Part shown: one piece after another, positions 32,311-59,683 of the stretch
Layout of the letters: every line of letters begins with the position of its first letter
Position numbering within the stretch: the first letter of the stretch is position 1
IMG/VR virus record: IMGVR_UViG_3300025133_000020
Source of the DNA: a virus
Taxonomy: Duplodnaviria; Caudoviricetes
DNA length: 64,000 nt
Strand: one strand, 5' to 3'
Made by a program: the position numbers and the translations under genes
Notes under the pieces: model-generated
What the model saw: only the letters and a program-made list of their open reading frames with translations
Databases searched by the model: none
Told to the model about the DNA's origin: nothing

Positions 32311-32405
32311 TGGTATCAACCATTTAAAAGGTTACTATACAGAAATGTGGGTTTCCCTTCGGGGTCAGACCACAGCCAAAACTACCTTTTGAGACTTTTG
32401 TGCCA
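32311..32405 (+). ncRNA. candidate Y-like RNA, motif copy A
   Basis: Terminal stem TGGTAT/GTGCCA; AACCAT-TTAAAAGGT-TACTA...ACCTTTTGA-GACT. Confidence 0.55.
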
Positions 32406-32409
32406 ATAT

Positions 32410-32473
32410 GGGGATGAAATGTGTGCCGCCACGGTGGTATAGCGTTTTTGGAAGCTCACCCTTCCCATCCCCA
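32410..32473 (+). ncRNA. small RNA with tRNA-like acceptor stem
   Basis: GGGGATG/CATCCCC plus A, followed by the same CTA spacer as its neighbours; no recognisable T arm. Confidence 0.4.
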
Positions 32474-32483
32474 CTAATATTAC

Positions 32484-32585
32484 AACCATTGTTAGAGTTA
32501 CTTGGTTGACGGAGAGCTTCGGCTCGAAGTTAAGGTTCAATTCCTTAAATGGGTGTGAAAGCGCCCGTATTTACTTTGACTGACT
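32484..32585 (+). ncRNA. candidate Y-like RNA with T arm (YrlA-like order), motif copy B
   Basis: AACCAT-TGTTAGAGT-TACT...ACTTTGACT-GACT enclosing GAGC-TTCG-GCTC, the T arm TAAGG-TTCAATT-CCTTA and GGGTGT-GAAA-GCGCCC. Confidence 0.6.
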
Positions 32586-32621
32586 ATTGTATATTTCATA
32601 AATTTCATACATTTAGGCGAG

Positions 32622-32648
32622 AAAGCTTGACTTCGGTCAGGCTTTTTT
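32622..32648 (+). terminator. intrinsic terminator ending the ncRNA operon
   Basis: AAAGCTTGAC-TTCG-GTCAGGCTTT plus T run. Confidence 0.85.
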
Positions 32649-32693
32649 AGTTTAGGGGTGGCAAGTGTCAAAAGTATTCGGTATATTCGTTCC

Positions 32694-32744
32694 ATGAACA
32701 ACAAATTCCCAAAGTTACTAATTCTAGGTAACGCTAGACATGGG
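32694..32744 (+). pseudogene. displaced 5' end of a dNMP kinase allele
   Basis: MNNKFPKLLILGNARHG duplicates the start of 33374 (FPKLLIIGNMRHGKDT). Confidence 0.8.
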
Positions 32745-32784
32745 CTGACCACTTTTCATAATAGTACCATATTTATCTTAAACG

Positions 32785-33384
32785 ATGATTATGGAAATGA
32801 CAAACATTTATACGTTAACTGACCCTAGGACTAATGAGGTTAGGTATGTAGGTAAAGCTAATAACCTAACCCAAAGATATAGGGCACATTTGAATAGAGC
32901 CAGAAAACACCAAACACATAAAAAGAATTGGTTAAAACAGTTAAAGAAAGAAGGGTTGAAACCAATTATTGAGATTATTGATGTCGTACCAGTGGATGAT
33001 TGGAGATACTGGGAAAGGTACTGGATAACACAAATGAGACAATGGGGTTTCAATCTGGTTAATCATACTGATGGTGGGGATGGGTGTACTTTTGGTAACC
33101 AAACTAGCTTTAAGAAGGGTCATAAGTCTTGGTTAGGTAAAACTCACTCTGAGGAAACTAAAAAGAAGATAAGTGATAATAACTGGAATAAAGGTAGATT
33201 AGCGTTTAATAGGCGAAAAGTGGTTCAAATGGATTTAGATGATAATATTATCAAGGTATGGGATTCGTTATCTGATGCTGAAGTTGGAACCGACTTTTTA
33301 AAAGCTAAAATAAGTGCTTGTTGTAGAGGTAAAAATAAAACGCATAAAAACTATAAATGGAAATATTATGAATATGAAAACTAA
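32785..33384 (+). CDS. GIY-YIG homing endonuclease with NUMOD3/NUMOD1
   Basis: NIYTL...RYVGKA; HSEETKKKIS; KISACCRGKNKTHKNYKW. Confidence 0.85.
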   Translation: MIMEMTNIYTLTDPRTNEVRYVGKANNLTQRYRAHLNRARKHQTHKKNWLKQLKKEGLKPIIEIIDVVPVDDWRYWERYWITQMRQWGFNLVNHTDGGDGCTFGNQTSFKKGHKSWLGKTHSEETKKKISDNNWNKGRLAFNRRKVVQMDLDDNIIKVWDSLSDAEVGTDFLKAKISACCRGKNKTHKNYKWKYYEYEN

Positions 33385-57136: not shown

Positions 57137-57370
57137 ATGAGTTATTATAGTAGTAATTTACCACCTAGTGAGGAAGAACTAAAAGCACTTGAAGATGAGA
57201 AAGCTAAATCTCAGAAGAGGTATGAAGAAGCTAGATTGAACTTATTGAGTAAGGTACCTAAGAAGTATAGAGATAACGCTGACAAGTTTGCTTATAGATT
57301 GGGTCATTCTGCTGGTAATGAAGAAGTTCTAATGTACTTAGAAGAGATTGTGGATTTATTTGATATATAG
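57137..57370 (+). CDS. hypothetical protein
   Basis: Coupled ORF. Confidence 0.45.
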   Translation: MSYYSSNLPPSEEELKALEDEKAKSQKRYEEARLNLLSKVPKKYRDNADKFAYRLGHSAGNEEVLMYLEEIVDLFDI

Positions 57371-57413
57371 ACACAAAACATGAGATTAAATTATTAACTA
57401 ATACCTAGAAATC

Positions 57414-58439
57414 ATCGGGGGCAGGGCACTGAAAAATACATATACAAGGAGATACCAGAGACGGGAGTTCACCAAGATATCCACAGAATTGCTGAGGATA
57501 CTTAGGCGAACATTCGCCCAAGCTGAGGTACCTAGATTCTTCCATGAAAAGATGAGTTTCGGTGACATTGACATCCTTATATCACGCACCAAAGTGGATG
57601 CTGATAGTGAGGCTATAGATATACGCACATACATTGAGGACACTTTCTCACCTAATGAGATATTCCACAACGGTAACTGCTGGTCTATGGACTATAAGGA
57701 GATTCAAGTTGACCTTATGTTTGTTGATGAAGAACACTTTGACTCTAACCTTAATTACCTAAGTTTCAACGACCTAGGTAACTTCATAGGTAGACTGGCT
57801 CACGGCTTCGGCTTGAGATACGGTCAAGAGGGTCTATGGGTGACTTACTACTTCAACAACACCAAGAACAAGATTATGATATCTAAGGATTACCCAAAGA
57901 TATACGAGTTCTTGGGTCTGGATTACAGACGATGGTTGAAGGGTTTTGCGACACTTGAGGAAATCTTCGAGTTCGTATCCGAGTCACCTTACTTCAACTG
58001 GCAAAAGTTCCAACCTTCCGAGTTGAACCGCATAAACAGGGAACGTAACCTTAAGAGGACTTCCTATATGCAATTCTTGGAGTGGATGGAGAATAACGTT
58101 GCTGACGAAGACCATGAATATCAATTCAACGAGGATAAGAGTAACTATCACCGTATGATTGATGATTACTTCCCAGAAGCCAATCTATTGGACGAAATCG
58201 CTAAGATTGAGTACACGGTTTCTAAGAGTAAGTATGCTAAGACCATATTCAATGGTAAGGTGGTCATGGATGAGTTCGATTTGAAAGGTGCGAAGCTTGG
58301 TAAAGCTATGGAAGGTTTCAGACTGTACATGGAAGACCAAGGTATCAGTAACCTAGAAGATTGTTATATAGAATGGGGTAGAGAGAACGTTATTGATAAC
58401 TTCGAACTATACCTTAATTCGGTGGAAGAGAAAATCTAA
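57414..58439 (+). CDS. Pol-beta-superfamily nucleotidyltransferase (probable ATC start)
   Basis: SFGDIDIL and IQVDLM motifs; the frame is open from 57402 and reads IGGRALK at 57414. Confidence 0.65.
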   Translation: MGGRALKNTYTRRYQRREFTKISTELLRILRRTFAQAEVPRFFHEKMSFGDIDILISRTKVDADSEAIDIRTYIEDTFSPNEIFHNGNCWSMDYKEIQVDLMFVDEEHFDSNLNYLSFNDLGNFIGRLAHGFGLRYGQEGLWVTYYFNNTKNKIMISKDYPKIYEFLGLDYRRWLKGFATLEEIFEFVSESPYFNWQKFQPSELNRINRERNLKRTSYMQFLEWMENNVADEDHEYQFNEDKSNYHRMIDDYFPEANLLDEIAKIEYTVSKSKYAKTIFNGKVVMDEFDLKGAKLGKAMEGFRLYMEDQGISNLEDCYIEWGRENVIDNFELYLNSVEEKI

Positions 58440-58756
58440 TTGTAAAATGGGTTTTCACGTAAAAGAAGGCTGACGATTTCGTCAGCTTTTTTTGCTTCAT
58501 CAGTAAACGAGACTACCTGTTCATGAGTCAAATCAAACCACTCACCACGTTTTCTGGTCATACCGAATTTCCGATGAAGCATACCTTCAATCTTCCTCAT
58601 CTTATGGTTCTCGGTCTCATACTTGTTGACTAATATGATTTCATCCGAATTACCAGTTTGAGCTTCCTTAATACGCTTTTCGATGCTACGCTTGGTGATA
58701 CCGATTTTGAAACCACCGTTATTACAGAACTCAGCCAGAAGATATACCATACCCAT
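58436..58756 (-). CDS. GIY-YIG (T5orf172-like) protein
   Basis: MVYLL..FKIGIT..RIKEAQTGN..RGEWF. Confidence 0.75.
   Translation of the reverse strand: MGMVYLLAEFCNNGGFKIGITKRSIEKRIKEAQTGNSDEIILVNKYETENHKMRKIEGMLHRKFGMTRKRGEWFDLTHEQVVSFTDEAKKADEIVSLLLRENPFYN
58467..58494. terminator. hairpin terminator inside the convergent gene end
   Basis: AAGGCTGACG-ATTT-CGTCAGCTTT plus T run. Confidence 0.7.
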
Positions 58757-58813
58757 ATTTTAAATATAGATATTAAATTTGGATATGTAAATTAAATTAT
58801 GTATATTTGTACC

Positions 58814-59242
58814 ATGGAAGAAAACTTAGAACGAGTATATACTACCAAACGATACGTGCATTCATTTGAAACACCTGACAGTTTAAGGTTTGAACCTGTG
58901 GATGAAATTTATGGTAGAGAAGGGTTATATGAGACCTATGACCCCGAATTTATTATAGATAACCCCTGTGCCACTTGGTATAATGGTTCAGCAATTAAGA
59001 TTTCAGTAATGGAAGAACAGATTGCCGAAATAAAGGCTAAAGGTGGTACCCATCTTGATATCGACTATCATGGTGACCACGACAGCTATATCATCAACGG
59101 TGTTGACATTCATAAGTCCACAGAAGAGGAAATAGCGAAGCATCTGGGACAAACAGAAGAAGAAAAAAGAAAAGAATTCTTGGAAAGATACCATAGATTG
59201 AAAAAGGAAATGGGTGATATTGAAGATTATTTAGACTCATGA
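58814..59242 (+). CDS. hypothetical protein
   Basis: TATATTTG box directly upstream. Confidence 0.55.
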   Translation: MEENLERVYTTKRYVHSFETPDSLRFEPVDEIYGREGLYETYDPEFIIDNPCATWYNGSAIKISVMEEQIAEIKAKGGTHLDIDYHGDHDSYIINGVDIHKSTEEEIAKHLGQTEEEKRKEFLERYHRLKKEMGDIEDYLDS

Positions 59243-59448
59243 AGAAGATAACCCTTAGTTATAACGAATTACTTGCGTTCTTCACCCAGAACATACACTT
59301 ACTTACAGAGGGTGATGTATACGTTGATAAGATAAAGGCTCACACCCCTTCGGTGTCATGCCACGACAAGAATACTTTCGAAAAGATATGTGAACCAGTT
59401 GAATTTCTTGAGAGTATAACGCTGACATTAGAAGAATACGAAGATTAA
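59239..59448 (+). CDS. hypothetical protein
   Basis: Coupled ORF. Confidence 0.45.
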   Translation: MKKITLSYNELLAFFTQNIHLLTEGDVYVDKIKAHTPSVSCHDKNTFEKICEPVEFLESITLTLEEYED

Positions 59449-59502
59449 ACCTCTGATTATCAGCGACTTACAATAAAAAGTGAATTTATTTTCATTTGCC
59501 CC

Positions 59503-59533
59503 TTGACAGGACGGAAATTTTATTGTATATTTG
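59503..59533 (+). promoter_or_regulatory. strong promoter for the Rot-like gene
   Basis: TTGACA ... TATATTTG. Confidence 0.75.
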
Positions 59534-59548
59534 TACTCTGAAATACAC

Positions 59549-59683
59549 AACCATAGGTAAGGTTACTAATTCTGAAAATAAAGCCACCTTATCTGATTAT
59601 TGTGATTTTTAACATTTAAACAATATAGTTTAACCATTGAGAAGGTTACTAGTACTTTTAATACACAACCACCTTTTCAGATT
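59549..59683 (+). ncRNA. two tandem copies (C, D) of the AACCAT-stem-TACTA...stem-GAYT RNA motif
   Basis: 9-bp stems 59555-59563/59586-59594 and 59638-59646/59671-59679 with compensatory changes. Confidence 0.7.

What the first reader, a model, noticed from the sequence alone, without database searches (positions are those of the whole stretch)
32311..59683. Four-copy covarying RNA motif links Y-RNA-like genes to the leader of a TROVE/TerD (Rot-like) gene
Seen: consensus AACCAT-[9-nt strand ending GT]-TACT(A)-variable-[complement]-GAYT occurs four times. Copy A is 32318-32396 (TTAAAAGGT/ACCTTTTGA), copy B 32484-32585 (TGTTAGAGT/ACTTTGACT), copy C 59549-59598 (AGGTAAGGT/ACCTTATCT) and copy D 59632-59683 (TGAGAAGGT/ACCTTTTCA). 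The stem sequences differ but pairing is kept. A and B sit in a stable-RNA operon. B encloses a T arm followed by a loop-closed hairpin. C and D are minimal versions between the promoter and the ATG of the 673-aa TerD-domain gene. Established: Ro60/TROVE proteins bind a terminal stem of Y RNAs, and YrlA-class Y RNAs mimic tRNA with a T arm followed by a loop-closed acceptor stem. Inference: a phage Rot-like protein, two partner RNAs and autoregulatory binding sites in its own mRNA. The motif differs from the classical Ro-binding stem.
Basis: partly seen in the sequence, partly recalled or inferred. Interest (0 to 1): 0.87.

Follow-up and report, generated by a model that had tools for sequence, protein, structure and literature searches.

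The report
Y-like handle RNAs with TerD-domain partner
A marine jumbo phage carries four copies of a small folded RNA "handle", one bearing a tRNA mimic, and the same handle sits in front of the same uncharacterised 673-residue protein in dozens of other phage and bacterial loci. This points to an undescribed RNA-protein particle built on the plan of Ro60 and its Y RNAs.

Summary
They share a two-helix "handle": outer stem P1, internal loop (C)CAU / GAYUA, 9-bp stem P2, then UACU and a variable apical insert.

A covariance model built only from short copies recovers the two untrained copies A and B and nothing else in the 64 kb. It gives 85 matches in 37 related loci, all on the gene strand. 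The last match ends 8-55 nt before the start codon of a P0001 homolog. In two complete phage genomes, every match lies within 400 nt and within 8.5 kb upstream of the gene. Both helices covary heavily (15 of 15 pairs).

Copy B and its relatives carry a T arm plus a loop-closed acceptor-like hairpin, as YrlA does. Other loci hold full permuted tRNAs or ordinary tRNA-like genes whose anticodon arm is the handle.

The protein is a helical domain plus a TerD fold. Ro60 structures are its best, but only middling, fold matches. Sequence and profile tests for TROVE fail.

Best reading: a Ro60/Y-RNA-like particle with a different protein and a different binding site. Autoregulation through C and D is possible but untested. 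This scan has already noted the same system in other genomes.

The parts
32006..32034 (+). Promoter of the stable-RNA operon (TTGCAT-17-TATATT, followed by TGTAC)
   Evidence: Read from the sequence. Aligns with the promoters of the gene and of two tRNA operons.
32078..32183 (+). tRNA-like unit 1. It has a 7-bp acceptor stem, a D arm with a 37-nt insertion, an anticodon stem closed by a 4-nt loop, a T arm, and ends in ACUA.
   Evidence: Rfam tRNA 40.8 bits; fold.
32194..32309 (+). tRNA-like unit 2 (acceptor GGGCGUG/CACGCCC, irregular body, ends in ACUA). It carries no handle.
   Evidence: Fold, z -2.4. Checked by eye for a permuted handle and none found.
32317..32400 (+). Handle copy A. P2 is 32324-32332 paired with 32384-32392. 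UACU is 32333-36. The 47-nt insert forms one hairpin. P1 is weak (CAA/UUG).
   Evidence: Model R1 25.7 bits, E 0.004, not in the training set; fold.
32410..32476 (+). tRNA-like unit 3: a 7-bp acceptor stem (GGGGAUG/CAUCCCC), two hairpins, ends in ACUA.
   Evidence: Fold, z -3.9.
32480..32592 (+). Handle copy B, a YrlA-like tRNA mimic. P1 is 32480-85 paired with 32587-92. P2 is 32490-98 paired with 32573-81. After UACU come UGGUU, one hairpin, a T arm and a loop-closed acceptor-like hairpin.
   Evidence: Model R1 29.3 bits, E 6e-4, not in the training set. Ten B-type copies align with covarying T and acceptor-like stems.
32622..32648 (+). Intrinsic terminator of the RNA operon: a 10-bp stem with one G-U pair, UUCG loop and a T run.
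   Evidence: Read from the sequence. The whole-operon fold pairs this stem.
59503..59531 (+). Promoter of the gene (TTGACA-17-TATATT, followed by TGTAC)
   Evidence: 11 of 12 consensus positions; same class as the tRNA-operon promoters.
59546..59604 (+). Handle copy C (minimal). P1 is CACAA/UUGUG. P2 is 59555-63 paired with 59586-94. The apical loop is 18 nt and A-rich.
   Evidence: Model R1 63.6 bits (in the training set); fold, z -2.8.
59628..59690 (+). Handle copy D (minimal). P2 is 59638-46 paired with 59671-79. The apical mini-hairpin is GUA-CUUUUAA-UAC. The model match ends 8 nt before the ATG.
   Evidence: Model R1 65.7 bits (in the training set); fold.
59701..61722 (+). P0001, 673 aa. 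Residues 1 to about 445 form a helical domain (Ro60-like fold, weak support). Residues about 447-620 form a TerD beta-sandwich. A small C-terminal alpha/beta part follows.

Best explanation
The four copies belong to a widespread, previously uncatalogued family of small structured RNAs. All share a protein-binding-type handle: P1, internal loop (C)CAU/GAYUA, the 9-bp P2, then single-stranded UACU. The apical end carries interchangeable modules: nothing (C), a small anticodon-loop-like hairpin (D), a long hairpin (A), or a tRNA mimic made of a T arm plus a closed acceptor-like hairpin (B). I propose that the handle is the docking site for P0001, a helical Ro60-like domain fused to a Ca2+/ligand-binding TerD domain, and that the two form a ribonucleoprotein analogous to Ro60-Y RNA. 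In this model the protein holds the handle, and the displayed tRNA-like module recruits or distracts tRNA-recognising enzymes during infection. The RNAs and the gene use the same promoter class as the phage tRNA operons. C and D are transcribed as the leader of the gene's mRNA. They are either cut out as small RNAs or also let the protein repress its own translation. Shown: the motif, its two helices, its modules and its linkage to the gene. Inferred: binding, the particle and its function.
For: The motif occurs four times against 0.49 expected, and chance pairing is 0.7% per copy. Covariation in 51 distinct handles: P1, which was not used to pick the copies, is 90% paired; P2 is 97% paired. 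All 15 pairs show changes on both sides. The covariation score is 1.01 against 0.215 when shuffled, and slid controls pair at 37-47%. Model R1 finds exactly the four window copies, including the untrained A and B. It gives 85 matches in 37 loci, all on the gene strand, with the last one 8-55 nt before the homolog's ATG. A 34%-identical homolog also has two handles upstream. In complete phages of 345 kb and 172 kb, every match lies within 400 nt and within 8.5 kb upstream of the gene. Neither phage has a canonical TROVE gene. Large-insert copies are permuted tRNAs with a T arm, a closed acceptor and sometimes a D arm. Bacterial and phage loci also hold ordinary tRNA-like genes whose anticodon arm is the handle, directly before the gene. 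More distant homologs (26-30% identity, including phage XacN1) have a different conserved handle, again with a permuted tRNA, so handle and protein change together. In close relatives (L002, L016) the B-like and A-like copies sit next to the gene. Ro60 structures are the best non-TerD fold matches.
Confidence: 0.6

Rival explanations
1. The handle is purely a cis-acting leader element. It would be a translational operator, an attenuator or a ligand-sensing riboswitch-like fold that controls the downstream gene. The distant copies A and B would then regulate something else or be relics.
For: The copy nearest the gene ends 8-55 nt before the start codon in about 27 loci, and no terminator intervenes in this window. 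Tandem arrangement is typical of some riboswitches. The conserved unpaired CAU, GAYUA and UACU could form a pocket.
Against: Copies A and B sit in a separate promoter-to-terminator RNA operon 27 kb away with no coding target. Other loci have copies 3-8 kb from the gene or downstream of it. The apical end tolerates 14-98-nt inserts, including whole tRNA bodies. In XacN1 a terminator-like hairpin lies between the RNAs and the gene. The handle also occurs as the anticodon arm of free-standing tRNA-like genes.
Confidence: 0.12
2. The handle is a maturation signal or scaffold recognised by a host or phage RNase or a tRNA-processing enzyme, used to release or stabilise tRNA-derived RNAs. The 673-aa protein is linked only because it acts on the same RNAs as an enzyme (nuclease, ligase or modifier), not as a Ro-like scaffold.
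For: The handles are embedded among tRNA-like genes and share promoters with tRNA operons. A CCA-adding-type nucleotidyltransferase lies 2 kb downstream of the RNA operon. The protein has many invariant acidic residues and an invariant GGDEGLK stretch. TROVE homology is unproven.
Against: No catalytic domain was recognised by Pfam, NCBIfam, PADLOC or fold search. The handle sequence changes together with the protein subfamily rather than staying fixed, as a host RNase site would. In complete genomes the handle occurs only near the gene, not at the other tRNA genes.
Confidence: 0.15
3. The RNAs are decoy tRNAs, and the particle is a counter-defence device. The displayed T-arm/acceptor minihelices and anticodon-like loops would soak up host tRNA-targeting nucleases, with the protein protecting or delivering the decoys. 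This is a more specific version of the main explanation.
For: Modules mimic separate parts of tRNA. Copy D and about eight other minimal copies, plus XacN1 copy 1 and the L008 tRNA-like gene, carry a 3-4-bp hairpin with the 7-nt loop CUUUUAA, which reads like a tRNA-Lys(UUU) anticodon loop. The element lies in a jumbo phage rich in tRNAs, with a tmRNA.
Against: The family is also common in bacteria, where a phage counter-defence role does not apply. The loop resemblance is short and was noticed after the fact. No defence gene context was tested.
Confidence: 0.1

Closest known systems
Bacterial and phage Ro60 (Rsr) with Y RNAs, especially YrlA/YrlB (Chen et al. 2014, PMC4201824; Rfam YrlA)
   Same: Small RNAs are encoded in tandem just upstream of, and on the same strand as, a roughly 60-75 kDa helical protein. 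A long stem formed by the RNA's 5' and 3' ends carries the conserved element. One RNA per locus bears a tRNA-like module written in permuted order (T arm, loop-closed acceptor, sometimes a D arm). Several paralogous RNAs occur per genome. PMC4201824 reports that YrlA and YrlB in M. smegmatis are processed from a single precursor upstream of rsr.
   Different: There is no Rfam Y RNA or YrlA match at E<=10. The handle sequence ((C)CAU/GAYUA plus UACU) is unrelated to the GNCGAAN0-1G motif that paper describes. The protein is not a recognisable TROVE protein. It has a TerD domain where Ro60 has vWA. Minimal copies have no tRNA-like part. Unpermuted tRNA-like versions also exist.
Ro60 structures: D. 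radiodurans Rsr (2nvo), Xenopus Ro (1yvp), Thermus phage phiLo Ro60 (9l5y; PMC12135203)
MXAN_6230/SCO0854 family RING domain-containing proteins (NCBIfam NF041916)
   Same: This is the only named family with significant sequence similarity: E 3.8e-35 for P0001 and down to 1.5e-101 for distant family members, covering the later helical part plus TerD. The ESM Atlas fold match has TM 0.81 over residues 1-445.
   Different: The score is far below the family cut-off (121 against 600 bits). P0001 lacks the N-terminal RING domain. No function is known for that family, and I found no paper on it in the held library.
TerD family proteins (PF02342; structures 2qz7, 2kxt, 3ibz)
   Different: TerD proteins are stand-alone domains of about 190 aa from tellurite and stress operons, with no known RNA partner. 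Here the domain is fused to a 445-aa helical domain. The Pfam score for P0001 is below the cut-off (15.3 against 25.3 bits).

Membership tests
YrlA / Y RNA (Rfam) | Match to the Rfam covariance models for Y RNA or YrlA | tested here: not met
   No such match at the gathering score over the window, nor at E<=10 over 31980-32680 and 59480-59720.
YrlA / Y RNA (Rfam) | Long stem formed by the 5' and 3' ends that carries the conserved protein-binding element | tested here: met
   P1 plus P2 with a conserved internal loop. 94.5% of cells are paired and 15 of 15 pairs covary.
YrlA / Y RNA (Rfam) | tRNA-like module in permuted order: T arm, then loop-closed acceptor stem, then D arm | tested here: met
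   Copy B and nine relatives have a T arm (GGTTCRANYCC) followed by a closed 7-bp hairpin with covariation. L027, L030 and L004 copies add a D arm. Copies A, C and D lack the module.
YrlA / Y RNA (Rfam) | Conserved Ro60-binding sequence (GNCGAAN0-1G in YrlA, per PMC4201824) | tested here: not met
   By inspection of the four copies and of alignment A3, the conserved positions are CAU, GUUACU and GAYUA instead.
YrlA / Y RNA (Rfam) | Encoded beside a Ro60/TROVE gene and bound by it | tested here: not met
   The neighbouring gene has no TROVE match. Complete phages G001 and G002 have no TROVE gene. Binding cannot be tested with these tools.
Ro60 / TROVE (PF05731) | Sequence match to the TROVE profile | tested here: not met
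   No Pfam match at E<=1 for P0001, and none in 54 homolog N-termini at E<=0.1. hhalign against a 24-sequence TROVE alignment gives probability 1.9%. That alignment is narrow (61-75% identity).
Ro60 / TROVE (PF05731) | HEAT-like helical toroid fold | tested here: inconclusive
Ro60 / TROVE (PF05731) | C-terminal vWA domain with MIDAS motif | tested here: not met
   The C-terminal domain has a TerD fold.
TerD domain (PF02342) | TerD beta-sandwich fold | tested here: met
TerD domain (PF02342) | Pfam score above the gathering cut-off | tested here: not met
   15.3 bits against 25.3 for P0001. Four homologs (P0007, P0055, P0078, P0092) carry a precomputed PF02342 hit.
MXAN_6230/SCO0854 RING family (NF041916) | Score above the equivalog cut-off and an N-terminal RING domain | tested here: not met
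   121 bits against 600, and only profile positions 386-712 of 842 are matched. Pfam finds no RING domain.

The most novel reading that the evidence does not exclude
A second, Ro60-independent class of ribonucleoprotein exists in phages and bacteria. It would be a modular RNA system in which one conserved handle docks onto a helical-plus-TerD protein while the apical end displays interchangeable pieces of tRNA: a T-arm/acceptor minihelix, a whole permuted tRNA, or an anticodon-like CUUUUAA loop. The TerD domain would couple the particle to Ca2+ or a nucleotide signal. The particle would work as a bait or sensor for tRNA-recognising enzymes, such as host anticodon nucleases or repair and modification enzymes. 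The leader copies would give the protein feedback control of its own synthesis.
Probability: 0.25. Interest if true: 0.9.

Novelty: new variant of a known kind. Interest (0 to 1): 0.78.

Why it matters
Ro60 with its Y RNAs is the only known particle in which a ring-like protein holds a small RNA that mimics tRNA, and its function in bacteria is still unclear. A parallel system would show that "handle plus tRNA mimic" is a recurring design rather than a peculiarity of Ro60. This one has a different protein, a different binding site, a much simpler minimal RNA (about 55 nt) and more than a thousand protein clusters. It would also give tractable material. The minimal handles are short enough for direct binding and structure work. 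Family members occur in cultured phages of Xanthomonas, Campylobacter, Lactobacillus and Rhodococcus. The RNA family is absent from Rfam 15 and could be added at once.

Tried and rejected
- DNA similarity of the gene region and of the RNA operon to 50,697 phage records: no match.
- No whole genome is held for the window.
- Single-protein scan of viral contigs found nothing; the alignment-based scan worked.
- Foldseek of either model against PDB gave only TerD, with nothing at E<=0.001 for the N-terminal domain. AFDB Swiss-Prot gave only weak pentatricopeptide hits.
- A profile of 54 N-termini against PDB sequences found nothing below E 0.4.
- PADLOC gave no match.
- AFDB clusters listed a "ZorC EH domain" protein and DUF4132 over the N-terminal part. 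I did not pursue these because Pfam finds neither family in P0001.
- hhalign against TROVE: the only aligned piece was the helix-strand junction before the C-terminal domain, and it was not significant.
- Sequencing runs: no RNA holder listed, so no reads were laid.
- I looked for a permuted handle inside tRNA-like unit 2, where GATT-N12-CCAT is present, but the flanking 9-mers do not pair, so I rejected it.
- The ACUA ends of the tRNA-like units are not special. Most ordinary tRNAs of this phage also end in A-C after the acceptor stem.
- Burroughs and Aravind 2016, which defines the ROT/TROVE repair systems, is not held. The jumbo-phage paper's supplements are not held either. I therefore could not check whether that group already classes this family as ROT/TROVE.
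- No complex prediction was run, because the tool does not take RNA.
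Full report
**1. Observation**

The 5' half of the motif, AACCAT-N7-GTTACT, occurs exactly four times in the 64 kb. All four are on the + strand, at 32318, 32484, 59549 and 59632. 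With one mismatch allowed, shuffles give 0.49 matches on average, and none gave as many as the five then found.

Each copy has a downstream strand that pairs with 8-9 of its 9 variable positions and is followed by GAYT. A random 9-mer of this window finds such a partner within 250 nt in 0.7% of trials. Shuffled versions of the four real strands do so in 2-5%.

**2. Anatomy of the handle**

The full element, from 5' to 3', is:

- P1 (5-7 bp);
- an internal loop of (C)CAU on the 5' side and GAYUA on the 3' side;
- P2 (9 bp, ending G-C, U-A at the apical end);
- single-stranded UACU;
- a variable apical insert of 14-98 nt.

I aligned 51 distinct short copies from the window and from related loci and counted pairs.

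- P2 is 97.4% paired, but copies were picked by P2 pairing.
- P1 was not used for picking and is 90.2% paired.
- All 15 pairs show changes on both sides.
- The covariation score is 1.01 against 0.215 in shuffles (0 of 500 shuffles reach it).
- Sliding the 3' partners by 1-3 columns drops pairing to 37-47%.

A covariance model built from these short copies (R1) finds exactly four matches in the window. C and D score 64-66 bits and were in the training set. B scores 29.3 bits (E 6e-4) and A scores 25.7 bits (E 4e-3), and neither was in the training set.

No Rfam 15 family matches the copies, even at E<=10.

**3. Linkage to the gene**

The 673-aa product (P0001) has a large family: 179 close relatives in one search, and 1674 representative clusters at E<=1e-3 in the exhaustive search. 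I fetched 9 viral loci, 2 genome loci, 32 metagenome loci and 3 contig look-ups.

- A simple pattern search found paired handles on the gene strand in 36 of 43 loci. The nearest copy was usually 64-100 nt before the ATG.
- R1 gave 85 matches in 37 non-identical loci. Every one is on the gene strand, and the last one ends 8-55 nt before the start codon.
- A 34%-identical homolog also has two copies directly upstream.
- In a complete 345-kb phage, the only three matches in the genome are the three within 400 nt upstream of the gene. In a complete 172-kb phage, all four lie within 8.5 kb upstream.
- Neither complete phage has a canonical TROVE gene, and none of the large ORFs I scanned in the window has one.

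In close relatives (L002, L016; 68-70% identity), the B-like and A-like copies sit in the same array, directly before the gene. This ties the window's distant copies A and B to the gene.

More distant homologs carry a different conserved handle before the gene: GGCYA-stem-UUCCUUCUA ... stem-ACUUUCC. These are L046 (26% identity) and Xanthomonas phage XacN1 ORF396. L046 includes a complete permuted tRNA. So the handle and the protein change together.

Four GC-rich loci of Myxococcales type have no handle directly upstream.

**4. Modules**

The apical insert defines at least four types.

- *C-type:* a short A-rich loop.
- *D-type:* a 3-4-bp mini-hairpin with a 7-nt loop. The loop is CUUUUAA in copy D and in about eight other copies.
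- *A-type:* one long hairpin.
- *B-type:* UGGUU, sometimes an extra hairpin, a T arm with the invariant GGTTCRANYCC loop, and directly after it a loop-closed 7-bp hairpin. Ten such copies align, and their T and acceptor-like stems covary.

Some copies (L027, L030, L004) add a D arm. That gives the full order T arm, closed acceptor, D arm, which is the order described for YrlA (PMC4201824).

The same element also occurs unpermuted. In L008, L010 and L025, an otherwise ordinary tRNA-like gene directly before the protein gene has P2 as its anticodon stem, and GAUU-N9-13-(A)CAU as its loop.

**5. Organisation in this window**

A promoter at 32006-32034 is followed by three tRNA-like units: 32078-32183, 32194-32309 and 32410-32476. 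Unit 1 scores 40.8 bits as tRNA, but it has a 37-nt D-loop insertion and a 4-nt anticodon loop. Copy A follows unit 2, copy B follows unit 3, and a terminator lies at 32622-32648.

The gene's promoter (59503-59531, 11 of 12 consensus positions) belongs to the same class. The shared pattern is TTGCAT or TTGACA, 17 nt, then TATATTTGTAC. The promoters of the two tRNA operons at about 39 kb and 62 kb also have it.

No terminator was found between copy D and the ATG. A CCA-adding-type nucleotidyltransferase gene lies at 34490-35689.

**6. The protein**

The AlphaFold2 models have pLDDT 79.9 for the whole protein and 85.5 for residues 1-445. They show a mostly helical N-terminal region, a beta-sandwich at about 447-620, and a small C-terminal part.

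*The sandwich is a TerD fold.*

- Foldseek probability is 1.0.
- The Pfam score is below the cut-off.

*Evidence that the helical part resembles Ro60.*

- All other hits align only about 90 residues (295-408).
- In BFVD, the first named hit outside the family is a phage TROVE protein (probability 0.96, E 0.1).

*Evidence against.*

- Foldseek against PDB and Swiss-Prot lists no Ro60.
- Pfam finds no TROVE in P0001 or in 54 homolog N-termini.
- hhalign against a TROVE alignment, built from a genuine Ro60 of a Myxococcales MAG, gives 1.9% probability.

I therefore call the fold Ro60-like at the level of a lead. The protein is not shown to be a TROVE member.

The only significant named sequence relative is NCBIfam NF041916, the MXAN_6230/SCO0854 RING family. 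It matches with E 3.8e-35 over residues 293-606, far below its cut-off. The Atlas fold match to that family has TM 0.81. P0001 lacks the RING domain.

**7. Mechanism**

*Shown:* a structured RNA family with two covarying helices and conserved unpaired nucleotides, modular apical ends that include tRNA mimics, and tight, strand-specific linkage to one protein family.

*Inferred:*

- The protein binds the handle. The conserved unpaired CAU, GAYUA and UACU that flank a helix of fixed length look like a protein site. The handle co-varies with the protein subfamily.
- The complex presents the tRNA-like module to other factors, as Y RNA tethers Ro60 to partners.
- The TerD domain adds Ca2+ or ligand control.

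I put 0.6 on the binding-particle model.

For C and D there are two readings, and they do not exclude each other. They may be small RNAs cut out of the leader; in M. smegmatis, YrlA and YrlB are processed from a single precursor upstream of rsr (PMC4201824). Or they may be operators through which the protein represses its own translation. The constant short distance to the ATG favours some coupling. The terminator-like hairpin between the RNAs and the gene in XacN1 shows that coupling is not universal. I put about 0.3 on autoregulation.

**8. Comparison and novelty**

The system works like Ro60 with YrlA or YrlB, but it fails the membership tests for both the RNA and the protein. The failures are: no Rfam match, a different conserved site, no TROVE profile match, and TerD in place of vWA.

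Iyer et al. 2021 (PMC7824862) mention ROT/TROVE proteins with a tRNA-like partner in a few jumbo phages. I could not tell whether they meant this family. The 2016 paper that defines those systems is not held. I found no paper linking Y RNA and TerD, or describing the SCO0854 family.

Earlier notes of this scan describe the same protein-RNA pairing in several other genomes and reached the same reading. My tests here were run independently of them.

I class the finding as a new variant of a known kind.

Noticed in passing
window 32078-32476: Three tRNA-like units are co-transcribed with handle copies A and B. Each has a 7-bp acceptor stem, and all end in ACUA, but none has a normal anticodon loop. 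Unit 1 has a 37-nt D-loop insertion and a 4-nt anticodon loop. Units 2 and 3 have irregular bodies. Their role and any relation to the handles are unknown.
   Followed up: partly
window 59651-59663 (copy D); also L001, L005, L012, L018, L039, L008:9930-9945 and L048:1995-2015 (XacN1): A recurrent 3-4-bp mini-hairpin has the 7-nt loop CUUUUAA (variants CUUUUAG, AUUUUAA, CUUGUAA) just after UACU. The loop reads like a tRNA-Lys(UUU) anticodon loop. It occurs with both handle variants.
   Followed up: partly
L048:1960-2350 (Xanthomonas phage XacN1, before ORF396) and L046:210-860: Distant homologs of the protein (about 24-26% identity) are preceded by three copies of a different conserved handle: GGCYA, stem, UUCCUUCUA ... 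stem, ACUUUCC. L046 includes a full permuted tRNA, and XacN1 has a tRNA-like gene and a terminator-like hairpin before the ATG. XacN1 is a cultured phage.
   Followed up: partly
window 32006-32039, 59503-59536, about 62080-62115 and about 38975-39005: Four promoters share TTGCAT or TTGACA, 17 nt, TATATT, then (T/C)G(T/C)AC. They drive the RNA operon, the TerD-fusion gene and two tRNA operons, which suggests one regulatory class for the phage's translation-related RNAs.
   Followed up: partly
window 34490-35689: A 399-aa ORF has a poly(A) polymerase / CCA-adding head domain (PF01743, E 2.5e-38) plus the RNA-binding region. It lies 2 kb downstream of the RNA operon.
   Followed up: no
window 32785-33384 and 63419-63883: A GIY-YIG/NUMOD3 homing-endonuclease-like ORF lies directly after the RNA operon. 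An HNH endonuclease ORF lies after the tRNA cluster at 62-63 kb.
   Followed up: no
window 29389-29750 and 31568-31642: The phage encodes a tmRNA (85.5 bits) and a tRNA with a CUA anticodon (an amber-reading type). ARAGORN and Rfam together call about 22 tRNA genes in the window.
   Followed up: no
window 54248-55120 and 27097-28143: A Mom-family protein (PF25680, E 7e-13) and a full DnaJ homolog are encoded in the window.
   Followed up: no
L010:5700-6000 (Myxococcales MAG): Two tandem tRNA-like genes, each with the handle as its anticodon arm, lie directly before the homolog. The same genome also has a canonical Ro60 (TROVE plus vWA, P0270) on another contig. The two systems therefore coexist in one genome.
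   Followed up: partly
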